From Escherichia phage phT4A: a DNA stretch of 64,000 nucleotides. The notes beneath the pieces are model-generated. The model did no database searches and was not told the DNA's origin. It saw nothing but the letters and a program-made list of their open reading frames with translations. The position numbers and the translations under genes were made by a program. The stretch lies in sequence record NC_055712.1. The stretch is one strand, 5' to 3'. Shown one piece after another: positions 380 through 64,000 of this stretch (positions are counted from its first letter, which is position 1; the number at the start of each line of letters is the position of its first letter).

Positions 380-458
380 AGGATCTCCTTTCCTCTATTT
401 AGCGGGGAACGGGATCAAAGCGGCCTGACGGGGTAATATAAAAATTTGAAGAAAATGC

Positions 459-487
459 TTGACCTTTTAAAATCTTTGATCTATAAT
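459..487 (+). promoter_or_regulatory. sigma70-type early promoter TTGACC-17-TATAAT
   Basis: TTGACC at 459-464, 17-nt spacer, TATAAT at 482-487, A-rich upstream; in AT-rich intergenic region upstream of the 749 gene. Confidence 0.55.
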
Positions 488-574
488 AATTATTAATTAA
501 AATTTTATCAAAAAGATCTAACAAGATCAAGTAAAATTTAATAAATAATTTATCAAAAATTTTTAGATCTGATC

Positions 575-603
575 TTGAATTCATAAATTTTATGATCTAT
601 AAT
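575..603 (+). promoter_or_regulatory. sigma70-type early promoter TTGAAT-17-TATAAT (tandem with 459-487)
   Basis: TTGAAT 575-580, 17-nt spacer, TATAAT 598-603; GATC immediately 5' of the -35; same module recurs at 35140-35168. Confidence 0.5.
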
Positions 604-748
604 ATATTAATATTTTATTTTATCATAAATTTTTATGAAGATCAATACTTAGATCTAATAAATTTTATGCTTTTTCTGAAAACTTTTCCTTTACCCCGTC
701 ACTAAATACTGGTACTATGTTCCCATATTGGAAATCAGGAAAAACAAA

Positions 749-1538
749 ATGACTCACTTGAAAAAATTCAAAGAATTTCTGACCGAAGGTAAAACCCTCG
801 CTCGTACCGTAGCACGTGGTCAACGCGCTAAAAACTTCCGATAAACATTCAATCGGTTTTCTTCACTTCAAACATGGTTCTGATTTCGAAGTTTTAGCAC
901 CGGATTCTCACGATCTGGCATACTTCGGTAAAAACATTGTACGTTTGAAAGGTATGACTACTGGTAAAGTTCAAGCGGCTTATGTCGATTGGGCTAAAGG
1001 TACTGTTTCTTTCTACAGTGGCAATCCGGATGATGATCTGGATTTCGACAAACCAGAAAAATTCAAAGCTGCTACTCTGTATGAAGAGGCGGAAGAAAAT
1101 CTGGATCTGTATAACCAGTTAGCAGAAGATTTCGAAATCGAGATCCCTATGGATGAAGCTCTGGTGAAAGGTAAAGTTTACAAACTCCCAAGCAACGATA
1201 TGCGTCTTCTGTACACTGGGCGTTCTAAAACTAAAGCAAGCGGTGAATATGCAGTGTTTACCGTAGTTGATGCTTCCGGCAAACCTCGCCTAGTATCTGG
1301 TAAAAAATTCACCCAAGAATATAAAGGCGATATGGTTTCTAAACTGGTTCTGGCTGAATCCGAAGATCTGAATGAAGCGGCTAAAGGCATTCGCGAAAAA
1401 GTTATTGCTGTGATGGTGAAACGCGGGTTTAACGAAAAAGATGCAGAAAAGATGGTTGACAAAAACCTGAAAGATGCTATGAAAGTTAGACCTGGTGCGA
1501 CCCCTGGCAAACTTGCAGAAATAGTTAGCACCCTGTAA
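749..1538 (+). CDS. hypothetical early protein; frame interrupted at A5 tract 830-834
   Basis: ATG 749 with AGGAAA RBS gives a 31-codon ORF stopping at 842-844; the long ORF (816..1538) continues in the +1 frame with no RBS of its own. Removing one A from 830-834 fuses them (~263 aa). Flanked by promoters and terminator. No recognisable family. Confidence 0.5.
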
Positions 1539-5287: not shown

Positions 5288-6910
5288 ATGATTATGGATT
5301 ATGAATCAATAATTGATGGAATTATGCAAAATTATCANNNNNNNNNNNNNNNNNNNNNNNNNNNNNNNNNNNNNNNNNNNNNNNNNNNNNNNNNNNNNNN
5401 NNNNNNNNNNNNNNNNNNNNNNNNNNNNNNNNNNNNNTGCAAATATACGGGTATGCAGGTTAACACCAACGCAGATACAAGCATTCCTCCTGTTCCTCCT
5501 GCAATGCCTTCCACTTATGGGGCATTACCGAGTGAATTAATCCGTGCTGATATTTCGTGCATTCCGGCAACTGTTGGTTTCGCATATACAAATATCAGTG
5601 ATGCTATGTTACAGGCATGGAACGAAACCCGTAATACGTTCAAGCTACAGTTTAACATGTTAACGGGTGCTGTACAGAATGGATTCGGGATCGCGACGAT
5701 GTTTGATGGTTTATCCGTATCGATGGAAGAAGTAATGGCGGGGGCGCTCGCATTGTCACAGCAAGCATGGCAAACTGCTATGAAAGTTTTCAGACAAGTG
5801 ATTAGCGCTGCATTTAACATTATCGGTGGTGCATGGGGATTGATTAATCAGTTCTTGCCTCAAGTAACCATCTTAGGTGTTGCGATCAACATTTACGATC
5901 TGGTGTTTGGTGATAATTCTGTTCAGACTTTGAAAGATGCGTTTAATGCAATCATCAAATCCGGACAACAAACATATGAAACCGTCATAAACGCAATATA
6001 CGGGGCCATAGGAAGCGCATACAATTACTCTGTGGAATATGTCAAAGCTGGCGCTCGCGACCTTGTGGATGCGTGTAGCGCGTTATTTGATTGGTGTTTA
6101 ACGATGTTCCAAAACGGTTGCGTTGCATTAATCGACTTATACGGTCGGATCATGCAAACATGGGCTATCCCTCCGGAAGTCCCAAACCCGTTATGGTCTG
6201 CGGTGCTGGCTATCCGTAACATCATGATGCAAATCAAACCACTTGATATAATTCTGGGCGGTAACTTCCCTGGATTCACTGCAATGGATTTGTATCAACA
6301 AGCACAGGAAAAAGTCAAGGCTTTTGTTGATGAGTCATACGAACAGATCCGAGGGCTTTATGAACAGGGGCAGGAACTTTACAAAACGTTAAAAAATCAG
6401 ATTTTCGAACGTGATACAATTCAGAGAAAATTCAACCAGTACTTAAACTGGATGTGGGGCGCTGTAACAGACGAAGCAACAGCGGCTTATCAATCTGCAT
6501 TGGATGCTGCAAACGCTGCTGTAGCTGCAACACAGGCCGCGTATGACGCTATACAGGAACAGATTGGATCTCTACAAGATGCAATGAAAGATACATACAG
6601 CATGGCGATGGAAGAATTAAAGAAATTGCCTTTGATGAGTACAATAAACGAGTTTTTAGGCTTCTGTGGTGTCGCATTTGACGATCTTCTCAAGTCATAT
6701 GAAAATGCGATTACTGGTGCTCAGTCTCTGTACAAAAATTTCATTGATAGTTCTCGCTCGTTTAAAGATCACTGCAAAGTAATCTATAACCAAATTTGTA
6801 CGTTGGCGTTGAGTAAAGTCACACAATATGTGAATAAATTGCTGTCTCTCATAGGATTAGCAATCAACTTTGGTTCGATTAGTGTATGTGTTCCAGTACT
6901 GAAATACTAA
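5288..6910 (+). CDS. hypothetical large helical protein with hydrophobic segments (ORF crosses 100-N gap; 5' part uncertain)
   Basis: Post-gap ORF 5438-6910 (~490 aa) is alpha-helical in composition with long hydrophobic stretches (e.g. ISAAFNIIGGAWGLINQFLPQVTILGVAINIY; C-terminal LLSLIGLAINFGSISVCVPVL) and an Ala/Gln-rich coiled-coil-like segment; no T4 counterpart recognised at this position. Confidence 0.4.
   Translation: MIMDYESIIDGIMQNYXXXXXXXXXXXXXXXXXXXXXXXXXXXXXXXXXXCKYTGMQVNTNADTSIPPVPPAMPSTYGALPSELIRADISCIPATVGFAYTNISDAMLQAWNETRNTFKLQFNMLTGAVQNGFGIATMFDGLSVSMEEVMAGALALSQQAWQTAMKVFRQVISAAFNIIGGAWGLINQFLPQVTILGVAINIYDLVFGDNSVQTLKDAFNAIIKSGQQTYETVINAIYGAIGSAYNYSVEYVKAGARDLVDACSALFDWCLTMFQNGCVALIDLYGRIMQTWAIPPEVPNPLWSAVLAIRNIMMQIKPLDIILGGNFPGFTAMDLYQQAQEKVKAFVDESYEQIRGLYEQGQELYKTLKNQIFERDTIQRKFNQYLNWMWGAVTDEATAAYQSALDAANAAVAATQAAYDAIQEQIGSLQDAMKDTYSMAMEELKKLPLMSTINEFLGFCGVAFDDLLKSYENAITGAQSLYKNFIDSSRSFKDHCKVIYNQICTLALSKVTQYVNKLLSLIGLAINFGSISVCVPVLKY
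5338..5437. other. assembly gap (100 N)
   Basis: Run of N. Confidence 0.95.
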
Positions 6911-31434: not shown

Positions 31435-33003
31435 ATGTCTAAGAAAAACGAATTGATGGAAAAATGGAACGATCTTCTGGAGTCTCAGGAAGGCTTACCG
31501 GATATCGCTACCAAATCCAAAAAACAACTGATTGCTGCCATTATGGAAGCACAGGAAAAAGACGCAGAAGTTGATCCGGTTTACCGCGACGAGAAAATCG
31601 TTGAATCCTTCGGTGGTTTCCTGGCGGAAGCTGAAATTGCTGGTGACCACGGTTACGACGCAACCAAAATCGCTTCTGGTAACTCAAGCGGTGCTATCAC
31701 CAACATCGGCCCTGCTGTAATCGGTATGGTTCGCCGTGCGATTCCTAACCTGATTGCGTTCGATATCTGCGGTGTTCAGCCTATGACTGGCCCTACTGGT
31801 CAGGTGTTCGCTCTCCGCGCAGTGTACGGCAAAGATCCGCTGGCTTCCGGTGCTAAAGAAGCATTCCATCCGATGTTCTCCCCGGATAGCATGTACTCCG
31901 GTCAGGGCGCGGCTCCGAGCAACGGCTTTAACGAACTGGCTTCCGGTACTGCTATCGCTGACGGCGCTATCGTGTTCCACGATTTCTCTGAAACTGGTCG
32001 TGTGTTCCTCCAGAACGTTTCTGGCTCTCCGGTTACTGTAACTGGTTCTACCGCCGATGCTCTGGATGCTGCTGTTATCGCCGAACAGGAAAAAGGTACT
32101 CTGGCTGAAATTTCTTACGGTATGGCTACCAGTGTAGCAGAACTGCAAGAACAGTTCAACGGTTCTACTGGCAACCCGTGGAACGAAATGGGCTTCCGTA
32201 TCGATAAGCAGGTTATCGAAGCACGTAGCCGCCAACTGAAAGCACAGTACTCTGTAGAACTGGCTCAGGATCTCCGCGCTGTTCACGGTATGGACGCTGA
32301 CGCCGAACTGTCTGCTATTCTGGCAACCGAAATCATGCTGGAAATCAACCGCGAAATCGTTGACATGATCAACTATACCGCACAGGTTGGTAAAACTGGT
32401 TTCACTCAGACCGTTGGCTCTAAAGCTGGTGCGTTTGACTTCCAGGATCCGATTGATGTTCGTGGCGCTCGTTGGGCTGGTGAAAGCTACAAAGCTCTGC
32501 TGATTCAGATCGACAAAGAAGCAAACGAAATCGCACGTCAAACTGGTCGTGGTGCTGGTAACTTCATCATCGCTTCCCGTAACGTGGTTTCCGCTCTGGC
32601 TCGTATCGATAGCGGTATCACTCCGGCAGGTCAAGGTCTCCAGAAGACTCTGAACGTTGACACCACTAAAGCAGTATTCGCTGGTGTTCTGGGTGGCGTG
32701 TACAAAGTATACATCGACCAGTATGCACGTGGTGATTACTTCACCGTGGGTTACAAAGGCGATAACGAAATGGATGCTGGTATCTACTACGCTCCGTATG
32801 TTGCGCTGACCCCGCTGCGTGGTTCTGATCCGAAGAACTTCCAGCCAGTAATGGGCTTCAAAACTCGTTACGGTGTAGGTATCAACCCGTTTGCGAACTC
32901 TCGCTCTCAGGCTCCGTCCGACCGTATCACTTCTGGTATGATTACCAAAGAAATGTTCGGTAAAAACGCATACTTCCGCAAGGTTTATGTGAAAGGCTTA
33001 TAA
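31435..33003 (+). CDS. gp23: gp23 major capsid protein
   Basis: 522 aa; long identical runs to T4 gp23 (IGPAVIGMVRRAIPNLIAFDICGVQPM, DAGIYYAPYVALTPLRGSDPKNFQPVMGFKTRYG). Confidence 0.97.
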   Translation: MSKKNELMEKWNDLLESQEGLPDIATKSKKQLIAAIMEAQEKDAEVDPVYRDEKIVESFGGFLAEAEIAGDHGYDATKIASGNSSGAITNIGPAVIGMVRRAIPNLIAFDICGVQPMTGPTGQVFALRAVYGKDPLASGAKEAFHPMFSPDSMYSGQGAAPSNGFNELASGTAIADGAIVFHDFSETGRVFLQNVSGSPVTVTGSTADALDAAVIAEQEKGTLAEISYGMATSVAELQEQFNGSTGNPWNEMGFRIDKQVIEARSRQLKAQYSVELAQDLRAVHGMDADAELSAILATEIMLEINREIVDMINYTAQVGKTGFTQTVGSKAGAFDFQDPIDVRGARWAGESYKALLIQIDKEANEIARQTGRGAGNFIIASRNVVSALARIDSGITPAGQGLQKTLNVDTTKAVFAGVLGGVYKVYIDQYARGDYFTVGYKGDNEMDAGIYYAPYVALTPLRGSDPKNFQPVMGFKTRYGVGINPFANSRSQAPSDRITSGMITKEMFGKNAYFRKVYVKGL

Positions 33004-33088: not shown

Positions 33089-33724
33089 ATGAAACATATT
33101 ATCTACAAAATAACAAATTTGGTTAATAATAAAATTTATGTTGGTGCTCATTCAACAGAAGACATCAACGATTCATACATGGGTTCAGGGGTGGCTATAA
33201 AGGCGGCTCAGAGGAAGTATGGTATCGATAAATTTATAAAAGAAATATTACATATTTTTGATACCCGTGAAGAAATGTATGAAAAAGAAAGAGAGATTGT
33301 TAATCTAGAATTTGTTAATAATCCACATACATATAATATGGGTATCGGTGGTGATGGTGGCCCTATGTTGGGTATGTTTCATTCAGAAGAGAAGAAACAA
33401 GAAATTTCCAAGATTACTAAAGAGAGAATGACAGATGAAGTAAAATCTCGTCTCTCTAAACTTAAAAAGGGTAAACCACAGTCCAAAGAATCCAACAGGA
33501 AGCGCTCAGAGACGTTAAAAGCTAAATATATGAATGGACGTATAGACAGAGAGTATAAACCTCTCACAGAAGCGCACAAGGCGAAATTAGGCCGTTCTGT
33601 ATCGATAGATGGAGTTGTATACTCATCCGGATCGGAGGCGGCAAAATCCCTTAGTATGTCCCACTCTGGTTTAAAATATCGGATTAATAGCGACAAATAC
33701 CCTACCTGGAAATTTGTTGCATAA
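33089..33724 (+). CDS. GIY-YIG homing endonuclease (SegD-like), free-standing between gp23 and gp24
   Basis: 211 aa; canonical IYKITNLVNNKIYVGAHS GIY-YIG motif, NUMOD3-like repeats, C-terminal DNA-binding segment; AT-rich; T4 has segD at the same position. Confidence 0.8.
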   Translation: MKHIIYKITNLVNNKIYVGAHSTEDINDSYMGSGVAIKAAQRKYGIDKFIKEILHIFDTREEMYEKEREIVNLEFVNNPHTYNMGIGGDGGPMLGMFHSEEKKQEISKITKERMTDEVKSRLSKLKKGKPQSKESNRKRSETLKAKYMNGRIDREYKPLTEAHKAKLGRSVSIDGVVYSSGSEAAKSLSMSHSGLKYRINSDKYPTWKFVA

Positions 33725-33756: not shown

Positions 33757-35046
33757 ATGAGTGAAAAATTTTACACAATTAACAAGCTGGTGCGTCAGTC
33801 ACAGCTACCGCCTGGCCTGTCTAAAAAGGTTCTTGATGAGGCAACCGGAACAGAAACAATTAACGTAGCTAATACCCGTCCGGATCTGGTATCTCTTACC
33901 CGTGCGGTAAACAACCTGATCTACGGTGAACTTGTAGCAATTCAGGAAACTAATTTGCCTACCGCAACTCTGTTCGGTGTGCGTTATCGTAACCCTAAAG
34001 GCGATATGACGTTTTCCAGCGCTGCTACCTATTCCGGTAAGTATGCAAGCCGTGATAACATTCCAGTTGGTGCGGTTGGTACTGCCTATACCAAAGGCCA
34101 AGTTTTTAAACATCCGACAAGCGATGTCGTATACGAAGCAACTGATAGCGTAACTCTCGCAGGTGCTGATATTGATGAAGCAATTATGGTCGCAGTATTC
34201 AGCAATAAATTACGCCTGGCAAGCGAAGCCGCGCCAACAAGTCAGTATGAAACCAGCGAAGATATTAGCACAACTTCTTTCGAAATGGATCGTTGGAATA
34301 TCAACGTTCGTTCCCGTAAATTCAAAACTGAAATGACCGTGGAACTTATGCAGGATCTGGAAGCAAACCAATTCAACGCAGAAAATGTGATTGAAGATGT
34401 TCTGGGTACTGTTGCCAGCGAAGAAGTAAACAAAGATATCATCCAGACTCTGATCAACGTATCACATCGTTACAACGTTGATGGTGTGGTAACAAATGGC
34501 ATTTTCGATGCTACAACCGCATACACTGCAAAGGATGCTCCGGCTTTAGGTCGTTTCCTGTATCAATTAGTGTGTGAAATGGGGCAGGAAATGAATAGAA
34601 CGACTTCATTTGAAGCTACCTATGTCCTGGCCTCTTCTCGCGTTGTAAGCGTTCTGTCTGCGTCTGGTTGGATGCATGAAACTGATGAAACCCACCCGTT
34701 AGCAACAGGTCGACTTAAAAACGGTTATTATGTCTATACTGACACCAATACACCGTTTGATTACCTGTTGACTGGTTGCAAGTACGATCTGGGTGAAATG
34801 GATCATGTTGGCTCTCTGTTCTATACGCCATACACAGAAGCTGATCAGGCAGGTTCTATCAAGATTTCTGTTGATCCTCAATCCTTACAGCCTAAAGTTG
34901 CTATTCTGATGCGCTACGGTTTATCGGTTAACCCGTATACCACTGCTGCTAATGAAAGACTTGTGAAAGGTGATGACTGGGTAAACCTCTCAGGCAAATC
35001 TAAAATGAGTCAGATTGTTGGTATCAAACTTCCTAAACTGGGTTGA
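33757..35046 (+). CDS. gp24: gp24 capsid vertex protein
   Basis: 429 aa (T4 427 aa); gp23-like fold; synteny. Confidence 0.9.
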   Translation: MSEKFYTINKLVRQSQLPPGLSKKVLDEATGTETINVANTRPDLVSLTRAVNNLIYGELVAIQETNLPTATLFGVRYRNPKGDMTFSSAATYSGKYASRDNIPVGAVGTAYTKGQVFKHPTSDVVYEATDSVTLAGADIDEAIMVAVFSNKLRLASEAAPTSQYETSEDISTTSFEMDRWNINVRSRKFKTEMTVELMQDLEANQFNAENVIEDVLGTVASEEVNKDIIQTLINVSHRYNVDGVVTNGIFDATTAYTAKDAPALGRFLYQLVCEMGQEMNRTTSFEATYVLASSRVVSVLSASGWMHETDETHPLATGRLKNGYYVYTDTNTPFDYLLTGCKYDLGEMDHVGSLFYTPYTEADQAGSIKISVDPQSLQPKVAILMRYGLSVNPYTTAANERLVKGDDWVNLSGKSKMSQIVGIKLPKLG

Positions 35047-35080
35047 TAGTATAACCCAACGGGGATAATATTCAATAGGT

Positions 35081-35106
35081 GGAGTAGGGAAACTTACTCC
35101 ATCTTT
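35081..35106 (+). terminator. hairpin terminator after gp24
   Basis: GGAGTAgggaaactTACTCC followed by ATCTTTT. Confidence 0.45.
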
Positions 35107-35139
35107 TAATAATTATTATAATTAATATTAAATTAGATC

Positions 35140-35168
35140 TTGAATTTATAAATGATTTATGATAAAAT
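35140..35168 (+). promoter_or_regulatory. sigma70-type promoter TTGAAT-17-TAAAAT
   Basis: Same GATC-TTGAAT module as 575-603. Confidence 0.45.
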
Positions 35169-35224
35169 TTATTAATTATAATAATTATAGATCAAACAAT
35201 TTTTGAAATCAAGTAAAAATAAAT

Positions 35225-35253
35225 TTGATTTTATAAATTAGATCATGTATAAT
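35225..35253 (+). promoter_or_regulatory. sigma70-type promoter TTGATT-17-TATAAT
   Basis: TTGATT 35225-35230, 17-nt spacer containing GATC, TATAAT 35248-35253. Confidence 0.45.
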
Positions 35254-35292
35254 TATTCTTTTAATAATATATTATATTAGATCAATTTAAAT

Positions 35293-35320
35293 TTGACTAC
35301 TAATTAATATAGTATATTAT
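35293..35320 (+). promoter_or_regulatory. sigma70-type promoter TTGACT-16-TATTAT
   Basis: About 30 nt upstream of uvsY ATG. Confidence 0.4.
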
Positions 35321-35350
35321 AGATCAACTGGGTAAATTGGTGAGTATGTT

Positions 35351-35770
35351 ATGAGTTTGAAATTAGAAGATCTACAAAATGAACTTGAAAAGGATATGCT
35401 GATAGATCCCCTCAAGTTGCAATCAGAATCAGCGGATATCCCGAAGATTTGGGCTAAATGGCTTCGATACCATTCAAACGCTAAGAAAAAATTGATCCAA
35501 CTTCATGCGAAAAAAGAAGCTGATGTGAAGGATCGTATGTTGTACTACACCGGAAGGCATGACAAAGAAATGTGCGAAGTGGTGTATACTGGGACTACTG
35601 AAATTAAAATCGCGATCGCTGGGGATCCGAAAATTGTAGAAACCAACAAGCTGATCCAGTATTATGACATGGTGGTAGATTTCACCAGCAAAGCACTGGA
35701 TATCGTCAAAAACAAAGGATACTCTATCAAAAACATGTTAGAGATCCGTAAATTAGAAAGTGGTGCATAA
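35351..35770 (+). CDS. uvsY: UvsY recombination mediator protein
   Basis: 139 aa; LEDLQNELEKDMLIDPLKLQ...YYTGRHD pattern as T4 UvsY (137 aa). Confidence 0.85.
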   Translation: MSLKLEDLQNELEKDMLIDPLKLQSESADIPKIWAKWLRYHSNAKKKLIQLHAKKEADVKDRMLYYTGRHDKEMCEVVYTGTTEIKIAIAGDPKIVETNKLIQYYDMVVDFTSKALDIVKNKGYSIKNMLEIRKLESGA

Positions 35771-35946
35771 TGTCTACTGAAAATGAAAAATGTGTAGTGT
35801 GCAAGTGTCCGGTTCCTTCTACTGGTTTTGTGACTGAATCTGGGCGCGTGTGTAGTACTATCTGTGCTGACTACATCGCAGAAAAAACAAAAAACGGCGA
35901 GATCAACGAATCCGATGATCTGAATGAAGTTCAAATGTTGCTGTAG
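35770..35946 (+). CDS. small Cys-rich protein (putative zinc-binding), translationally coupled to uvsY
   Basis: 58 aa, ATG overlaps uvsY stop (TAATG); CVVCKC...CSTIC; below the 60-aa ORF-track cutoff. Confidence 0.45.
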   Translation: MSTENEKCVVCKCPVPSTGFVTESGRVCSTICADYIAEKTKNGEINESDDLNEVQMLL

Positions 35947-36462: not shown

Positions 36463-37962
36463 CTAAATTTCGATTTGTTTGATCACGTAGTCAAACTTTT
36501 CTTCATTGTAAATGCGTACTCGTTCGATTGCGTGTTTCATACCATAGTTTTTGTATGAATATTTATTTTTAGCATTTTTGGACTTTGCCAGCGTTGCTAA
36601 GTTATCAACCAAATCCCAAACAGTAGCAAGAGATTTAGAATCATGTTTACGCAGTACGCGCCCAATTGACTGTTTGACTATAACAGCAGATTTGCAAGGA
36701 TGTCCGAAGATGATGTGATGCAGGTTCTTGACAGAAATACCTGTACTCAGTACACCAATAGAACCGATTACGATCAGTCCCTTCGTTGATTCCGCGATCC
36801 GTTTCATTTCGTTTCGCTCATCAATCCCCGTTTCCCCAGAAATGTATACAACGTTGTCATATACCTTTTTGAGTTGCTCATACAGCCATTTACCATGTTT
36901 GATCTGATTGAACATCACAAACACGTTTTCATCTTTTTCCCTTGCCAGTTTCAACGCCAGCTTACAGATCCATGCGTTACGCCTGGTATGCGATGTTATA
37001 TACTTGATTTCGCTTTGGTAATCGGCCCCCTTCATTTTCTTAATCTCATCCTCTTTGTATCTCATGAAGATGGTATTAATTCGAAGGTTGGTAACTTGAC
37101 CTTCCTGCATCAACCGATTTGTATCAACTGGCTTGAAGATTTGACCAAAAGCGCCAATGTATTGCATCATGTTTGCTTTGCCTTCTTTCAGAGAACCAGA
37201 AAGGCCAAACTTGAAAATACACTGATCCATTGTGTTGATGATCTTCTGTATGCTTTGTCCTGTTGATTTGTGGCATTCATCCACCATCAAACACATGAAC
37301 TGTTGAAACCACTCAGGAGGCATTTTAACAGCCGATTGCCACGTAGACACGTAGATCAATGCATTACTGTTTTTAGCAGTTCCTGAACGTATTCCAAGCA
37401 TTGCCTCGCGAGGTAAAAGGCGATAGTTGACAATATCACCGATCATCTGATCAACAAGGGCGGTTGTTGGGACAATGATTAGTACTTTGCCTGTGTAATT
37501 TTCCAGACACCAACGAGATATCAACCCCTGGATAAGAGATTTACCCGCTGACGTTGGGAGGTTAAGCACAGCACGGCGGTTTTTAATCGCATGGAACACC
37601 GATTGTTTTTGATACCAATACGGATCAATCTGCTTGTTTCCGTCGTATACTGGGTGTTCTTCTAACCACTTGTCAAAATCTGGCTGGGTAATTTCTTCTG
37701 TTTCGTGGATCTTAGGATCCATCCAGATAGAATACCCGCGAGACTCCGCGAATTTTGTTACAAGATAGGCTAAACCGTAGGGCAGTTTCCCGTTATAGTC
37801 CATCAAGTATATGTAGCCGTTCCATCCACCATATTTGTATTTTGCCTGGTACTGATAACCTGGCGGCTGGAAGCTGAAATAGTCGCGCAATTCATAGACT
37901 ATGTTAGCCTCTGCCTGAATCTGCACATGACTAGTGTTAAGGAATTTGACTTCGATATCCAC
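36463..37962 (-). CDS. uvsW: UvsW RNA-DNA and DNA-DNA helicase
   Basis: 499 aa; helicase motifs (LPTSAGKS, DECH, LSGSL) and extensive similarity to T4 UvsW; GTG start. Confidence 0.92.
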   Translation of the reverse strand: MDIEVKFLNTSHVQIQAEANIVYELRDYFSFQPPGYQYQAKYKYGGWNGYIYLMDYNGKLPYGLAYLVTKFAESRGYSIWMDPKIHETEEITQPDFDKWLEEHPVYDGNKQIDPYWYQKQSVFHAIKNRRAVLNLPTSAGKSLIQGLISRWCLENYTGKVLIIVPTTALVDQMIGDIVNYRLLPREAMLGIRSGTAKNSNALIYVSTWQSAVKMPPEWFQQFMCLMVDECHKSTGQSIQKIINTMDQCIFKFGLSGSLKEGKANMMQYIGAFGQIFKPVDTNRLMQEGQVTNLRINTIFMRYKEDEIKKMKGADYQSEIKYITSHTRRNAWICKLALKLAREKDENVFVMFNQIKHGKWLYEQLKKVYDNVVYISGETGIDERNEMKRIAESTKGLIVIGSIGVLSTGISVKNLHHIIFGHPCKSAVIVKQSIGRVLRKHDSKSLATVWDLVDNLATLAKSKNAKNKYSYKNYGMKHAIERVRIYNEEKFDYVIKQIEI

Positions 37963-49517: not shown

Positions 49518-49806
49518 TATCCGCAAAAACGACAAAGGAACCGTGATTTTCTATGACAACATGCCCCTTGTAGCTCGCAAGGGGCTTTTTGCTAAAATCG
49601 CTGGGTATTCCTTTAAACTGGAAGAAGTCAACGACGAAACACTAAAAGAGATCGTAAGAATTGCCTTACAGTTAAGAGGTAAGAAAGACGAACAAAAAGC
49701 TATTGACATGATCAATAAATTGGGTGAAACTCAATGCTTCATAGTGAATCGTGGTTACAAGTACGATACCATTGCAAAATTTGAAAAAGGGCTTTGTGAA
49801 TTATGA
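49504..49806 (+). CDS. hypothetical protein
   Basis: 100 aa; GTG start with AGGAA RBS, overlaps nadV end. Confidence 0.4.
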   Translation: MPGFSIRKNDKGTVIFYDNMPLVARKGLFAKIAGYSFKLEEVNDETLKEIVRIALQLRGKKDEQKAIDMINKLGETQCFIVNRGYKYDTIAKFEKGLCEL

Positions 49807-50654
49807 GTTATTATGGTGTGATCCCATACACAGGAAACAAGCAAAAGCTACTTCCTGAACTGTTCAAATTATTTCCAGACAGAAACAGCTATATGCGATT
49901 CATCGACTGTTTTTGTGGTGGTTTGAGTGTGTCGCTAAACGTCCCTAAACCCGTTCTAAGCAACGATTACGATCGGACGTTGATTGATATGTATAAGCGC
50001 CTTCAAATGCTTCCTGACCTCTCTCCTGTGCGAGAATTGATTAAACAGCATGGTCTGGGTAAGAACGAGAAAGAAGCGTATCTCACATTTCGTGATGCGT
50101 ATAATAAGAACAAGGATCCTCTATGGCTCTACGTTCTGATCCTTCATTCGTTTAGTAATGTTAATCGAACCAACGATAAAGGCGATTTTAACGCCAATTT
50201 TGGTTGTAGAACGTTGAATGATTCTACCGTTAAACGGTTTGAACACTTCAAAAATAATGTTCGGGGGATTGAATTCTCTAGCGCATCGTTTAAGGATCTT
50301 GATATCTGTTTGAATGATTTTGTGTACTGCGATCCGCCGTACCTGATCACTGATGCAGTTTATAACAAGTTCTGGAACGAAGAACGCGAGCATGAATTAT
50401 ATGATTTTCTCGATAATTTAAACTCTGATGGTATCAAGTTTGGTTTATCAAACGTGACACATCATGCAGGAAAGCAAAATGATATCCTGATCGAGTGGAT
50501 GCAAAAATATAATGTGCATAACCTCGATAAAAAGTATCTGTTAGGCCAGCATACTGATTCTTACGAACAAAATAAAACGCAAGAAGTCTACGTGTGCAAC
50601 TACCAGAAACGCGACGTAAATACATACCCTGAAACACTGGATGACTTAATGTAA
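49803..50654 (+). CDS. dam: DNA adenine methyltransferase (Dam, GATC-specific)
   Basis: 283 aa; extensive similarity to T4 Dam (YTGNKQKLLPEL, FCGGLSVSLNV, DPPY motif VYCDPPYLIT). Confidence 0.9.
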   Translation: MSYYGVIPYTGNKQKLLPELFKLFPDRNSYMRFIDCFCGGLSVSLNVPKPVLSNDYDRTLIDMYKRLQMLPDLSPVRELIKQHGLGKNEKEAYLTFRDAYNKNKDPLWLYVLILHSFSNVNRTNDKGDFNANFGCRTLNDSTVKRFEHFKNNVRGIEFSSASFKDLDICLNDFVYCDPPYLITDAVYNKFWNEEREHELYDFLDNLNSDGIKFGLSNVTHHAGKQNDILIEWMQKYNVHNLDKKYLLGQHTDSYEQNKTQEVYVCNYQKRDVNTYPETLDDLM

Positions 50655-51452: not shown

Positions 51453-51711
51453 AAGTAGAAAAANNNNNNNNNNNNNNNNNNNNNNNNNNNNNNNNNNNNN
51501 NNNNNNNNNNNNNNNNNNNNNNNNNNNNNNNNNNNNNNNNNNNNNNNNNNNNNNNNNNNNNNNAAAACGTAGGTTATGGACAGGATATACCCTGGAGGCT
51601 TTACAGGCCGACCCAGAACGTTCTAAGCTACTTCCTTACATTGATGTTCTGATTGATGGTAAGTATGAAAAAGATTTGCCAACAGAAAAAGCCGTTTCGC
51701 GGTTCAGATAA
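51449..51711 (+). CDS. nrdG: NrdG anaerobic ribonucleotide reductase activase (fragmented by assembly gap)
   Basis: ATG 51449 overlaps gp49 stop; post-gap frame encodes LWTGYTLEALQADPERSKLLPYIDVLIDGKYEKDLPTEKAVSRFR, matching the NrdG C-terminus; the radical-SAM CxxxCxxC region is missing in the gap. Confidence 0.55.
51464..51563. other. assembly gap (100 N)
   Basis: Run of N inside nrdG. Confidence 0.95.
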
Positions 51712-58843: not shown

Positions 58844-58943
58844 NNNNNNNNNNNNNNNNNNNNNNNNNNNNNNNNNNNNNNNNNNNNNNNNNNNNNNNNN
58901 NNNNNNNNNNNNNNNNNNNNNNNNNNNNNNNNNNNNNNNNNNN
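58844..58943. other. assembly gap (100 N)
   Basis: Run of N; probably hides gp35 3' end, a gp36-like gene and the first codons of the next fibre gene. Confidence 0.9.
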
Positions 58944-63339: not shown

Positions 63340-64000
63340 ATGGCTNNNNNNNNNNNNNNNNNNNNNNNNNNNNNNNNNNNNNNNNNNNNNNNNNNNNNNN
63401 NNNNNNNNNNNNNNNNNNNNNNNNNNNNNNNNNNNNNNNNNNNNNGGCTGATTTAGCAAAAATTCAATTCCTACGTAGCACAGTTACGGGGAAAACACCT
63501 ACTACAAGTCAGCTTGCAGATGGTGAACTGGCGATCAACATGGCTGATTATGCCATTTACACGAAAAATGGTTCTTCGATCGTTCAGTTAGCGGGTAAAG
63601 GTATCCCAGAAACAAATACCAAAAAATTAACAGTTGATGGGCCTAGTGCTCTTAATGATACCGTTACCGTAGCGGAAGGTAAAACTATTACTTTCACCAA
63701 CGAGGATTTAAGTGGTGGAATAACTCGTCATATCGTTGGCAAATGCGCCACTAATGATGGTTGGTACATCGGTTCCGGTGGTACAAGCAACAATGGTATT
63801 CTTGAAATCGGTACTATTGATGACGGCGTTGAAACCATCCAGATCGTACAGCGCGGCGCAGGCAACGTTGAAGCCAGAAAGTTAGTCTTGCTTGATGGTT
63901 CGGGTAATACGAATCTTCCTGGTGATTTAAGATTAACCACCAATAAAGCTGTTAAAATTTCGAATGGAAGCACTCTTACACTAGAAATGGGCGTAGGTGC
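63340..64000 (+). CDS. second gp37-like distal tail fibre gene (partial; interrupted by 100-N run; open to window end)
   Basis: ATGGCT before the gap, then GGCTGATTTAGCAAAAATTCAATTCCTACGTAGC = (M)ADLAKIQFLRS..., same N-terminal module as 58944 copy, then a divergent sequence. Confidence 0.7.
63346..63445. other. assembly gap (100 N), possibly spurious
   Basis: Flanks share GGCT; joining them gives ATG GCT GAT TTA ... in frame with the T4 gp37 N-terminus. Confidence 0.85.
63446..63717 (+). repeat. fibre 5' module, copy 2
   Basis: See 58944-59215. Confidence 0.85.

What the first reader, a model, noticed from the sequence alone, without database searches (positions are those of the whole stretch)
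35107..35345. Second copy of the GATC/TTGAAT promoter module, upstream of uvsY (possible oriF-like region)
This AT-rich region holds 5 GATC sites (35136, 35190, 35241, 35280, 35322) and at least three sigma70-type promoters. The block GATCTTGAATT(T/C)ATAAAT is shared almost exactly with 571-589. In T4, one replication origin (oriF) coincides with the promoter region of uvsY, so this conserved module may be promoter plus origin.
Basis: partly seen in the sequence, partly recalled or inferred. Interest (0 to 1): 0.5.

Follow-up and report, generated by a model that had tools for sequence, protein, structure and literature searches.

The report
GATC-dense AT-rich promoter island upstream of uvsY
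The stretch before the recombination gene uvsY of this Klebsiella T4-like phage is a real, conserved, very AT-rich cluster of host-type promoters studded with GATC methylation sites; it is one of three related islands in the genome, and it may also be a replication origin, but nothing here shows that.

Summary
The window is a Slopekvirus (KP15/KP27/Miro-like Klebsiella phage). Positions 35104-35345 lie between the gp24 terminator and uvsY. They are 87% A+T and carry five GATC sites (0.40 expected; 0/2000 shuffles reach five) and 11 sigma70-like promoter matches (4.0 expected).

This is one of exactly three such islands in the genome:
- A: rnh|gp55.
- B: window 426-701, gp3|hypothetical gene.
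- C: the finding.

They are the three least stable 200-bp stretches of the genome. All share a ~100-bp quasi-palindromic module, a predicted face-to-face promoter pair (CTTGAnnT-N11-TGATCTATAAT facing TTGAny-N-TATGATAAAAT).

The phage's ordinary early promoters carry no GATC, and the phage encodes a T4-type Dam.

The sister genus Pseudotevenvirus has an unrelated iteron/palindrome element at the same three loci.

The origin idea is untested. C is not a T4 oriF-type origin in the strict sense (no MotA box, no MotA/AsiA) and is not oriC-like (no DnaA boxes). The promoter-plus-unwinding-element layout upstream of uvsY keeps an origin role open, at about 0.25.

The parts
35078..35103 (+). Intrinsic terminator of gp24 (GGAGTA-loop-TACTCC followed by a T run). 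Marks the left edge of the island.
   Evidence: Annotated as a terminator in KP27 and Miro at the matching position. Sequence read. Invariant in 10 genomes, apart from one substitution in the T-rich tail in Miro.
35104..35345 (.). Island C: 242-bp non-coding tract, 13% G+C, five GATC sites. The least stable 200-bp stretch of the genome.
   Evidence: No ORF of 30 aa or more apart from one antisense ORF overlapping the uvsY start. No Rfam match within the island.
35125..35226 (-). Complete copy of the ~100-bp quasi-palindromic module shared with islands A and B. Best alignment is on the minus strand.
   Evidence: Alignment A5 has 75% mean column identity. C(-) against the B units gives z = 6.4-6.6 versus dinucleotide shuffles; C(+) gives 3.5-4.4.
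35140..35168 (+). P1, a type II promoter: GATC-TTGAAT-17-(TG)a-TAAAAT. It reads rightward, with a predicted start near 35175.
   Evidence: Both hexamers are invariant in 10 genomes.
35184..35212 (-). C1, a type I promoter: CTTGATT-N-TTTGATC-TATAAT. It reads leftward (antisense to gp24), with a predicted start near 35177, so it faces P1.
   Evidence: Both hexamers are invariant in 10 genomes.
35225..35253 (+). P2: TTGATT-17-TATAAT, with GATC 35241 in the spacer.
   Evidence: The -10 hexamer is changed to TAAAAT in Matisse, and GATC 35241 is lost in Matisse and RCIP0021.
35257..35327 (.). Shorter, diverged second copy of the left half of the island. Internal repeats: TCTTTTAATAAT, ATATTAWATTAGATC, ATTATAGATCAA.
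   Evidence: Direct repeat families D1, D3 and D4, spaced 132-155 bp.
35293..35320 (+). P3: TTGACT-16-TATTAT, the promoter nearest uvsY. It is flanked by the two invariant GATC sites (35280, 35322). Its predicted start is about 23 nt before the ATG.
   Evidence: Annotated as a promoter in the KP27 record. Invariant in 10 genomes.
35351..35770 (+). uvsY (139 aa), followed by a uvsY.-2-like gene at 35770-35946.
426..701 (.). Island B: 276 bp, 19% G+C, eight GATC sites. It holds two tandem module copies (446-545, 562-660). It is bracketed by the inverted repeat TGACGGGGTAA / TTACCCCGTCA.
   Evidence: As single-stranded DNA it folds far better than shuffles (z = -6.7).
49803..50654 (+). Phage Dam methyltransferase, T4 Dam-like. 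It would methylate the GATC sites.
   Evidence: TIGR00571, E = 1.9e-43. T4 Dam structures 1YFJ/1YF3/1Q0S, E about 1e-84. A Dam gene is reported for this genus in PMC5219037.

Best explanation
Region C is one of three paralogous intergenic islands of Slopekvirus genomes. The islands are very AT-rich, GATC-dense, and built from sigma70-type promoter modules.

Most likely function. C acts as an entry point for unmodified host RNA polymerase early in infection, inside a block of late structural genes.
- The proximal promoter P3, and upstream P1 and P2, would transcribe uvsY and uvsY.-2.
- The facing promoter C1 would send transcripts leftward, antisense to gp24.
- P1 and C1 form a face-to-face pair whose predicted start sites coincide, so polymerase bound at either one would melt the same central AT tract.

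The GATC sites. They are mostly in the form TAGATC. They are substrates of the phage's own T4-type Dam, so they are probably fully methylated in infecting DNA. I infer that methylation tunes promoter use and/or helix opening at these islands specifically, because the phage's ordinary early promoters lack GATC.

Shown here: the sequence anatomy, the statistics, the paralogy, the conservation, and the presence of Dam.
Inferred: promoter activity, promoter timing, the antisense transcript, and any role of methylation.
For: Promoter-like sites are 11 versus 4.0 +/- 2.3 expected in C, and 12 versus 2.8 +/- 1.5 in B.

The hexamers of P1, C1 and P3 are invariant in 10 Slopekvirus genomes, although the island has about 13 variable sites or indels. 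P3 and a minus-strand promoter were predicted independently in the KP27 GenBank record.

Module homology among A, B (two copies) and C gives z = 4.8-7.6 against dinucleotide shuffles. Families I and II align in register.

GATCTATAAT occurs five times in the window against 0.22 expected. Four of those are in B and C, one more is in A, and only one lies elsewhere in the 166.7 kb examined.

GATC counts are 9, 8 and 5 in A, B and C, against 0.99, 0.91 and 0.40 in shuffles.

TAGATC occurs 17 times in the 794 bp of islands and 48 times in the other 165 kb.

Ordinary early promoters (AAAAAG..TTGACw, often inside terminator hairpins) have no GATC.

C has no canonical late promoter TATAAATA, so uvsY needs another promoter type.

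Dam is present (PMC5219037).
Against: There are no transcription data, and consensus matches arise easily in AT-rich DNA.

Two facing promoters with coincident start sites cannot both be occupied, which is odd for plain gene expression.

Individual GATC sites are not protected. GATC1 is deleted in K14-2, GATC2 is mutated in RCIP0021, and GATC3 is mutated in RCIP0021 and Matisse. That is 4 of about 13 events falling on 8% of the positions.

Three 250-bp islands look like more than is needed to express a few genes.

The sister genus keeps an invariant iteron-flanked core at the same loci. That level of constraint suggests a function beyond promoters.
Confidence: 0.6

Rival explanations
1. The island is, alone or in addition, a replication origin. 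Transcription from its promoters would open the extremely AT-rich tract or leave an R-loop in it. The RNA would then prime leading-strand synthesis, as at T4 oriF (uvsY) or the early-promoter-dependent oriE. Islands A, B and C would be the origins of this phage group. This is compatible with the promoter explanation.
For: In T4, oriF is annotated at the 5' end of uvsY, with the uvsY transcript as primer. [quoted passage not shown]

C, B and A are the three least stable 200-bp stretches of the genome. Their dG values are -194, -200 and -208, against a median of -265 and a fourth-lowest of -231.

A and B sit at or near switches of transcription and GC skew, as T4 oriE, oriF and oriG do.

The same three loci in Pseudotevenvirus hold a repeated element. 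It has four 13-mers (CGARCGAAGYGAG, two direct and two inverted) around an invariant AT core, which is an origin-like layout.

GATC density (19-34 per kb) is of the order seen at oriC (own knowledge).
Against: There is no replication data of any kind.

There is no MotA box and no MotA/AsiA.

There are no DnaA boxes and no oriC-type 13-mers.

The position matches to T4 are loose. oriG is 2.2 kb from rnh and oriE is 3.4 kb from gene 3.

GC skew follows transcription direction, and C is not a skew extremum.

Pure A/T hybrids make poor persistent R-loops (own knowledge).
Confidence: 0.25
2. The repeated TAGATC/GATC motifs are the functional core. They would be a binding platform for a GATC-reading protein, either host SeqA on hemimethylated DNA or an unidentified phage protein. 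That protein would sequester or mark the islands after replication, for example to shut off early transcription. On this view the promoter-like hexamers are secondary.
For: GATC is enriched 9- to 12-fold over dinucleotide shuffles in all three islands.

15 of 22 island GATC sites carry a TA flank, against 4.4% elsewhere and 29% expected from island composition.

All five sites in C read GATCTAnnnT on the minus strand.

A and B contain closely spaced GATC pairs, 5-14 bp apart.

The phage encodes Dam.
Against: In C the sites are 39-54 bp apart. That is beyond the roughly 31 bp that SeqA cooperativity tolerates (own knowledge).

Three of the five sites are lost in one or another natural isolate.

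About a third of the island GATC sites are simply part of the promoter hexamers (TTGATC) or of the TGATCTATAAT motif.

No candidate binding protein was found. The conserved neighbouring gene has no known domain.
Confidence: 0.1
3. The island is functionally neutral AT-rich spacer. The similarity to B would be low-complexity coincidence or a recombination scar, and the GATC sites would be hitch-hikers of a duplicated segment.
For: AT-rich DNA yields many spurious alignments in both orientations.

The 19-bp perfect inverted repeat in the window is not conserved in other isolates.

Several GATC sites are dispensable.
Against: Dinucleotide-preserving shuffles never reach the observed GATC counts or module alignment scores.

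There are exactly three such islands per genome, all outliers in stability.

The island is retained at 95-99% identity or better in 112 of 113 matching isolate records, with invariant promoter hexamers.

The same three positions hold a constrained element in another genus.
Confidence: 0.05

Closest known systems
T4 oriF / ori(uvsY), an R-loop origin
   Same: It lies directly upstream of, or at the 5' end of, uvsY. It sits behind a late gene read in the same direction. It consists of a promoter followed by easily unwound A+T-rich DNA.
   Different: T4 uses a MotA-dependent middle promoter (ATGCTTCA-N12-TATAAT) in a 76-bp spacer, with its unwinding element inside uvsY and no GATC cluster. Here there is no MotA box, MotA or AsiA. 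The spacer is 304 bp, with several sigma70 promoters on both strands and five GATC sites. Origin activity is unknown.
T4 oriE
   Same: It depends on an early (sigma70) promoter, and its primer RNA is antisense to a late gene. The T4 record says the primer is the complement of the gene 5 transcript. The predicted leftward C1 transcript would likewise be antisense to gp24. Repeated short motifs are present.
   Different: oriE has evenly spaced 12-nt iterons and lies inside gene 5. The repeats in C are TAGATC-type and unevenly spaced (39-54 bp).
PeSL cassettes (promoter-early stem-loops) of RB49/phi1 (PMC2839356)
   Same: They are families of near-identical sigma70 early promoters with AT-rich upstream DNA, repeated around a T4-type genome, and able to act as recombination substrates.
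   Different: PeSLs pair one promoter with a G/C-rich terminator stem-loop and sit among ORFans in hyperplastic regions. This phage has such promoters elsewhere, without GATC. The islands are 250-bp multi-promoter tracts next to core genes, and only three exist.
GATC-rich unwinding regions of E. coli oriC and the P1 plasmid origin (own knowledge)
   Same: There is a high density of Dam sites within the most AT-rich, easily melted DNA, with GATC leading AT-rich repeats in one orientation.
   Different: There are no DnaA boxes and no GATCTnTTnTTTT 13-mers. GATC spacing in C is too wide for SeqA pairs. T4-type phages do not use DnaA.
Face-to-face promoter pairs of coliphages 186 and P2 (own knowledge)
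   Same: Two convergent sigma70 promoters lie a few tens of bp apart and must interfere with each other.
   Different: Those pairs are lysis-lysogeny switches with repressor operators. Here the phage is virulent, the predicted start sites coincide, and the pair is repeated four times in the genome.
Pseudotevenvirus (RB16/RB43/GAP161) intergenic element at rnh|55, gp3|p185 and 24|uvsY
   Same: It occupies the same three intergenic positions. The flanking proteins are 81-82% identical to the Slopekvirus ones. It is also repeated three times per genome, has an AT-rich centre, overall dyad symmetry, and outward promoters carrying a GATC in the spacer.
   Different: There is no detectable sequence similarity to the Slopekvirus islands (z about 0). 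It is 31-32% G+C, has four G/C-rich 13-mers and an invariant ~55-nt core, and carries only 1-2 GATC sites.

Membership tests
T4 oriF/oriG-type R-loop origin | MotA-dependent middle promoter: a MotA box (a/t)(a/t)TGCTT(t/c)A near -30 plus a -10 hexamer, with MotA and AsiA encoded by the phage. | tested here: not met
   There is no TGCTT on either strand of 35047-35350. The T4 oriF promoter does have it. tblastn with T4 MotA and AsiA finds nothing better than E = 1.5 in the 166.7 kb of genome examined.
T4 oriF/oriG-type R-loop origin | An A+T-rich DNA unwinding element downstream of the promoter. | tested here: met
   The 200 bp starting at window 35103 is the least stable stretch of the genome (dG -193.6 against a median of -265). 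This is an in-silico result only.
T4 oriF/oriG-type R-loop origin | Location at the uvsY promoter or 5' end, with the uvsY transcript as primer. | tested here: inconclusive
   The position upstream of uvsY matches. The neighbouring genes differ (gp24 here, gene 25 in T4), and no transcript or primer is known.
T4 oriF/oriG-type R-loop origin | A persistent R-loop, and autonomous replication of a plasmid carrying the fragment during infection. | not testable with these tools
   This needs DRIP or S1 mapping, plasmid amplification assays, 2-D gels or marker-frequency sequencing.
Sigma70-type early promoter of T4-related phages | TTGACA-like and TATAAT-like hexamers 16-18 bp apart, in an AT-rich upstream context. 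| tested here: met
   P1, P2, P3 and C1 score 9-10 of 12. There are 11 sites against 4.0 expected.
Sigma70-type early promoter of T4-related phages | Conservation of the hexamers among related genomes. | tested here: met
   The P1, C1 and P3 hexamers are invariant in 10 genomes. The P2 -10 hexamer varies in one genome.
Sigma70-type early promoter of T4-related phages | A mapped early transcription start, sensitive to rifampicin. | not testable with these tools
   No transcriptome of this genus was found in the searchable literature.
PeSL cassette (RB49/phi1) | A single early promoter joined to a G/C-rich stem-loop terminator, flanking ORFans in hyperplastic regions. | tested here: not met
   The island contains no G/C-rich stem-loop, and the gp24 terminator lies outside it. 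The flanking genes are core genes. PeSL-like promoters do exist elsewhere in the genome.
oriC / P1 oriR-type Dam-controlled origin | A cluster of GATC sites in the AT-rich unwinding region. | tested here: met
   Five GATC sites in 242 bp against 0.40 expected.
oriC / P1 oriR-type Dam-controlled origin | DnaA boxes (TTWTNCACA) and GATCTnTTnTTTT 13-mers. | tested here: not met
   No DnaA box with one mismatch or fewer in A, B or C. No 13-mer match within one mismatch; only four loose two-mismatch matches, two of which do not begin with GATC.
oriC / P1 oriR-type Dam-controlled origin | GATC pairs close enough for cooperative SeqA binding (up to about 31 bp, own knowledge). | tested here: not met
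   Spacings in C are 54, 51, 39 and 42 bp. A and B do have pairs 5-14 bp apart.
Slopekvirus AT-rich GATC island family (defined here: A, B, C) | About 250 bp at 21% G+C or less, GATC enriched about ten-fold, and at least one copy of the ~100-bp facing-promoter module with TGATCTATAAT. | tested here: met
   C carries one full and one partial module copy.

The most novel reading that the evidence does not exclude
Islands A, B and C are the replication origins of RB43-type T4 relatives, in a MotA-independent form. Face-to-face sigma70 promoters would melt a Dam-methylated, TAGATC-studded AT tract to start replication. The sister genus would do the same job at the same three loci with an unrelated iteron-flanked element. 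If so, origin position is conserved while origin sequence and mechanism turn over. That would give the first sequence-defined origins outside T4 itself.
Probability: 0.2. Interest if true: 0.75.

Novelty: new variant of a known kind. Interest (0 to 1): 0.5.

Why it matters
Outside T4 itself, I know of no mapped replication origins or early transcription entry points for T4-related phages, and my literature searches found none. The T4 origins share no motif that can be searched for.

This work defines a compact, easily recognised class of element. There are three per genome. They are extreme in helix instability, dense in Dam sites, and built from a facing-promoter module. They sit at positions that are also special in a sister genus.

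That gives precise targets for marker-frequency, R-loop, start-site and methylation experiments in a phage genus now widely used for Klebsiella therapy.

There is also a practical point. These islands are where many public assemblies of these phages break.

Tried and rejected
- Raw blastn between the islands. It gave dozens of overlapping hits in both orientations and was uninformative because of AT-richness. I replaced it with module alignments scored against dinucleotide shuffles.
- The 19-bp perfect inverted repeat 35109-35127 / 35170-35188 as a cruciform. It is not conserved, since other isolates have a mismatch or indels. The whole-island fold has z of only -2.65.
- Canonical T4 late promoter in C. 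There is none; only TATAAATG and TATAAATT occur, and the latter is variable.
- Rfam scan of 34900-35500. Nothing fell within the island.
- DnaA boxes, IHF consensus and oriC 13-mers. None were found.
- Sequence homology between the Slopekvirus islands and the Pseudotevenvirus element. None was found.
- A repeat-driven explanation for assembly breaks in Slopekvirus. The longest exact B-C match is only 11 nt, and the break points scatter over 35156-35281, so AT-bias coverage loss is more likely.
- An IMG/VR scan for the type I promoter pattern. It found 37 stretches. Slopekvirus contigs gave the expected copies. I judged the other hits to be chance and did not inspect them.
- Function of the conserved gene next to island B. 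No Pfam domain, and the PHROG family has unknown function.
- Literature searches for Slopekvirus promoters, GATC or transcriptomes. Nothing relevant turned up beyond the KP15/KP27 genome paper.

Full report
**Identity and setting**

The window is about 99% identical to Klebsiella phages of the genus Slopekvirus (Miro, KP27, KP15; family Straboviridae). The finding lies between gp24, the capsid vertex protein (33757-35046, +), and uvsY (35351-35770, +). The gp24 terminator is at 35078-35103.

**The observation**

The island 35104-35345 is 13% G+C. Dinucleotide-preserving shuffles give a mean of 0.40 GATC and never reach five (0/2000).

Sigma70-like promoter matches number 11 in 34900-35500, against 4.0 +/- 2.3 expected. 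The + strand promoters are:
- P1: TTGAAT-17-TAAAAT with TG, 35140-35168.
- P2: TTGATT-17-TATAAT, 35225-35253.
- P3: TTGACT-16-TATTAT, 35293-35320.

P3 and a minus-strand site are annotated as promoters in the KP27 record.

A match of that length between the two islands arose in only 2 of 300 shuffles.

The region is present at 95-99% identity or better in 112 of 113 matching public phage records. It is neither an artefact nor a private oddity.

**A family of three islands**

I scanned 166.7 kb of the ~176-kb genome, joining Miro pieces to the window; the remaining ~9 kb at the Miro end (L006) was covered only by the AT-rich tract scan. Only three tracts of about 260 bp have 20% G+C or less:
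- A: Miro 31834-32100, between rnh and gp55.
- B: window 432-688, between the gp3-like tail gene and a conserved hypothetical gene.
- C: window 35082-35338, the finding.

Their GATC counts are 9, 8 and 5, against shuffle means of 0.99, 0.91 and 0.40.

They are also the three least stable 200-bp stretches of the genome. Nearest-neighbour dG is -208, -200 and -194 kcal/mol. The fourth-lowest is -231 and the median is -265.

The hexamer TAGATC/GATCTA occurs 17 times in the 794 bp of islands and 48 times in the other 165 kb. Of the 22 island GATC sites, 15 carry a TA flank. Elsewhere the figure is 4.4%, and island composition predicts 29%.

GATCTATAAT occurs five times in the window (0.22 expected): twice in B on the + strand, twice in C on the minus strand, and once by chance inside a gene. 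It occurs once more in A.

**Anatomy: a facing-promoter module**

Aligning the pieces shows a ~100-bp quasi-palindromic module. It consists of two predicted promoters facing each other:
- Type I: CTTGAnnT-N11-TGATCTATAAT.
- Type II: TTGAny-N-T(A/T)TGATAAAAT.

The distance from one -35 hexamer to the other is 72-74 bp, so the predicted start sites coincide in the central AT tract.

Copies of the module:

| Island | Coordinates | Strand |
|---|---|---|
| A | Miro 31851-31952 | + |
| B | window 446-545 | + |
| B | window 562-660 | + |
| C | window 35125-35226 | best on - |

Global alignment scores against dinucleotide shuffles:

| Comparison | z |
|---|---|
| Among A and B units | 6.3-7.6 |
| C(-) vs B units | 6.4-6.6 |
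| C(+) vs B units | 3.5-4.4 |
| C(-) vs A | 4.8 |
| C(+) vs A | 5.4 |

C also contains a shorter second copy at 35257-35327, marked by the repeats TCTTTTAATAAT, ATATTAWATTAGATC and ATTATAGATCAA. This second copy carries P3.

B is bracketed by TGACGGGGTAA / TTACCCCGTCA. As single-stranded DNA it folds far better than shuffles (z = -6.7). C does so only mildly (z = -2.65).

**What sets the islands apart from ordinary promoters**

A genome-wide consensus scan shows the phage's usual early promoters. They are AAAAAG..TTGAC(A/T) types, several of them embedded in terminator hairpins in the PeSL manner. None carries a GATC (PMC2839356). GATC is therefore an island feature, not a promoter feature.

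The phage encodes a close relative of T4 Dam at 49803-50654 (PMC5219037). The sites are therefore expected to be methylated.

**Conservation**

In 10 Slopekvirus genomes, the hexamers of P1, C1 and P3 and the GATC sites at 35280 and 35322 are invariant. The other three GATC sites are each lost in some isolate:
- 35136: removed by a 5-nt deletion in K14-2.
- 35190: mutated in RCIP0021.
- 35241: mutated in RCIP0021 and in Matisse.

That makes 4 of about 13 events falling on 8% of the positions. There is no sign of selection on each individual site. Any function would act at the level of the cluster.

**Sister genus**

Pseudotevenvirus (RB16, GAP161, Xman) and two more distant metagenomic relatives carry a quite different element at the gp24|uvsY spot. 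It has:
- outward-facing promoters TTGACyTCTTGATC...TATAAT;
- four copies of a 13-mer CGARCGAAGYGAG, two direct and two inverted;
- an invariant AT core TTATATTTTATATATAGAG...TTTTTAACC, bracketed by a short inverted repeat that differs between genomes while staying complementary.

These features are seen.

RB16 has copies of this element at rnh|55 and gp3|p185 as well. Those are exactly the three loci of the Slopekvirus islands.

The flanking proteins are 81-82% identical between the genera. The elements themselves share no detectable similarity. Position is conserved and sequence is not.

**The origin hypothesis**

T4 oriF is annotated at the 5' end of uvsY, with the uvsY transcript as primer. 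A T4 origin is defined as a MotA-dependent middle promoter plus an A+T-rich unwinding element of non-specific sequence. oriE instead uses an early promoter (PMC3016281).

Against strict membership:
- C has no MotA box.
- The phage has no detectable MotA or AsiA.
- C is not oriC-like. It has no DnaA boxes and no 13-mers, and its GATC spacing of 39-54 bp is too wide for SeqA pairs.

Still compatible with an origin role:
- Promoters next to the most meltable DNA of the genome.
- A location upstream of uvsY.
- A and B at or near transcription and skew switches.
- The origin-like iteron layout at the same loci in the sister genus.

No result here measures replication. I put the origin role at about 0.25, and it is not exclusive of the promoter role.

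**Verdict**

Promoter module: yes. Second copy: yes, but it is one of three islands and is best aligned inverted. oriF-like origin: not a member of that family, and function untested.

The best-supported mechanism is an early sigma70 transcription entry point serving uvsY, with a facing antisense promoter, in a Dam-methylated and unusually meltable tract. I found no description of these islands in the searchable literature.

Noticed in passing
window 426-701 and 35156-35281; loci L012, L015, L056: Many public assemblies break or start inside islands B and C. phiKp_9, phiKp_15 and phiKp_23 are deposited as 140.9-kb plus 35-kb records cut at B and C. PSKm2DI, PSKm4DII, phiKp_26 and phiKp_18 start or end there. 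Two IMG/VR contigs of 142 and 144 kb start inside C, or inside its Pseudotevenvirus counterpart. The break points scatter, so AT-bias coverage loss is the likely cause in Slopekvirus. In Pseudotevenvirus the near-identical repeated core could also break assemblies.
   Followed up: partly
L007 1046-1305, L021 770-1000, L022 3096-3345 (RB16); L008, L009, L017, L018: Pseudotevenvirus and relatives carry a conserved ~200-bp element at rnh|55, gp3|p185 and 24|uvsY. It has four 13-mers CGARCGAAGYGAG (two direct, two inverted). These surround an invariant core TTATATTTTATATATAGAG..TTTTTAACC. A short inverted repeat around the core changes between genomes while keeping its complementarity: CTACAT/ATGTAG, GTACTG/CAGTAC, TGTCC/GGACA. 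Outward promoters carry GATC in the spacer. The layout looks like an origin or an operator. I found no description of it in the papers searched.
   Followed up: partly
window 749-1538 (extra A near 830): The conserved hypothetical gene next to island B (Miro192, 262 aa; PHROG 7322, unknown function) is split here by a one-base insertion in an A run, relative to Miro. This is either a sequencing error or a real frameshift.
   Followed up: partly
window 5338-5437, 51464-51563, 58844-58943, 63346-63445: There are four runs of exactly 100 N (masked stretches). Their flanks are ordinary coding-like sequence, not AT-rich islands.
   Followed up: no
L012 1-45 (IMG/VR contig 3300045988_041714): The first 39 nt of this 142-kb contig match nothing in the phage. 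They are joined to island C at the GATC at window 35280 (…TTTTGCA|TCAATTTAAATTTGAC). This looks like an assembly chimera.
   Followed up: partly
Miro L004 11167(-), L005 6276(+), 16867(-), 33675(-), L006 7498(-): A repeated compact terminator-promoter cassette has its -35 hexamer inside the hairpin: AAAAAGCCCTTGACTTCGGTCAGGGGCTTTT..TATATT. It is PeSL-like, occurs at least five times, and has no GATC.
   Followed up: no
whole window: GATC is 1.9 times its mononucleotide expectation genome-wide (439 against 231), although this is explained by trinucleotide content (ratio 1.05). CTAG is strongly avoided (44 against 231, and 0.5 of the Markov expectation).
   Followed up: no
window 33089-33724: A GIY-YIG (SegD-like) homing endonuclease gene sits between gp23 and gp24. 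An AP2/HNH-type one follows the gene next to island B in Miro.
   Followed up: no
window 37993 (-): A canonical late promoter TATAAATA lies just upstream of uvsW (start at 37962, minus strand). This fits late expression of the helicase that unwinds origin R-loops in T4.
   Followed up: no
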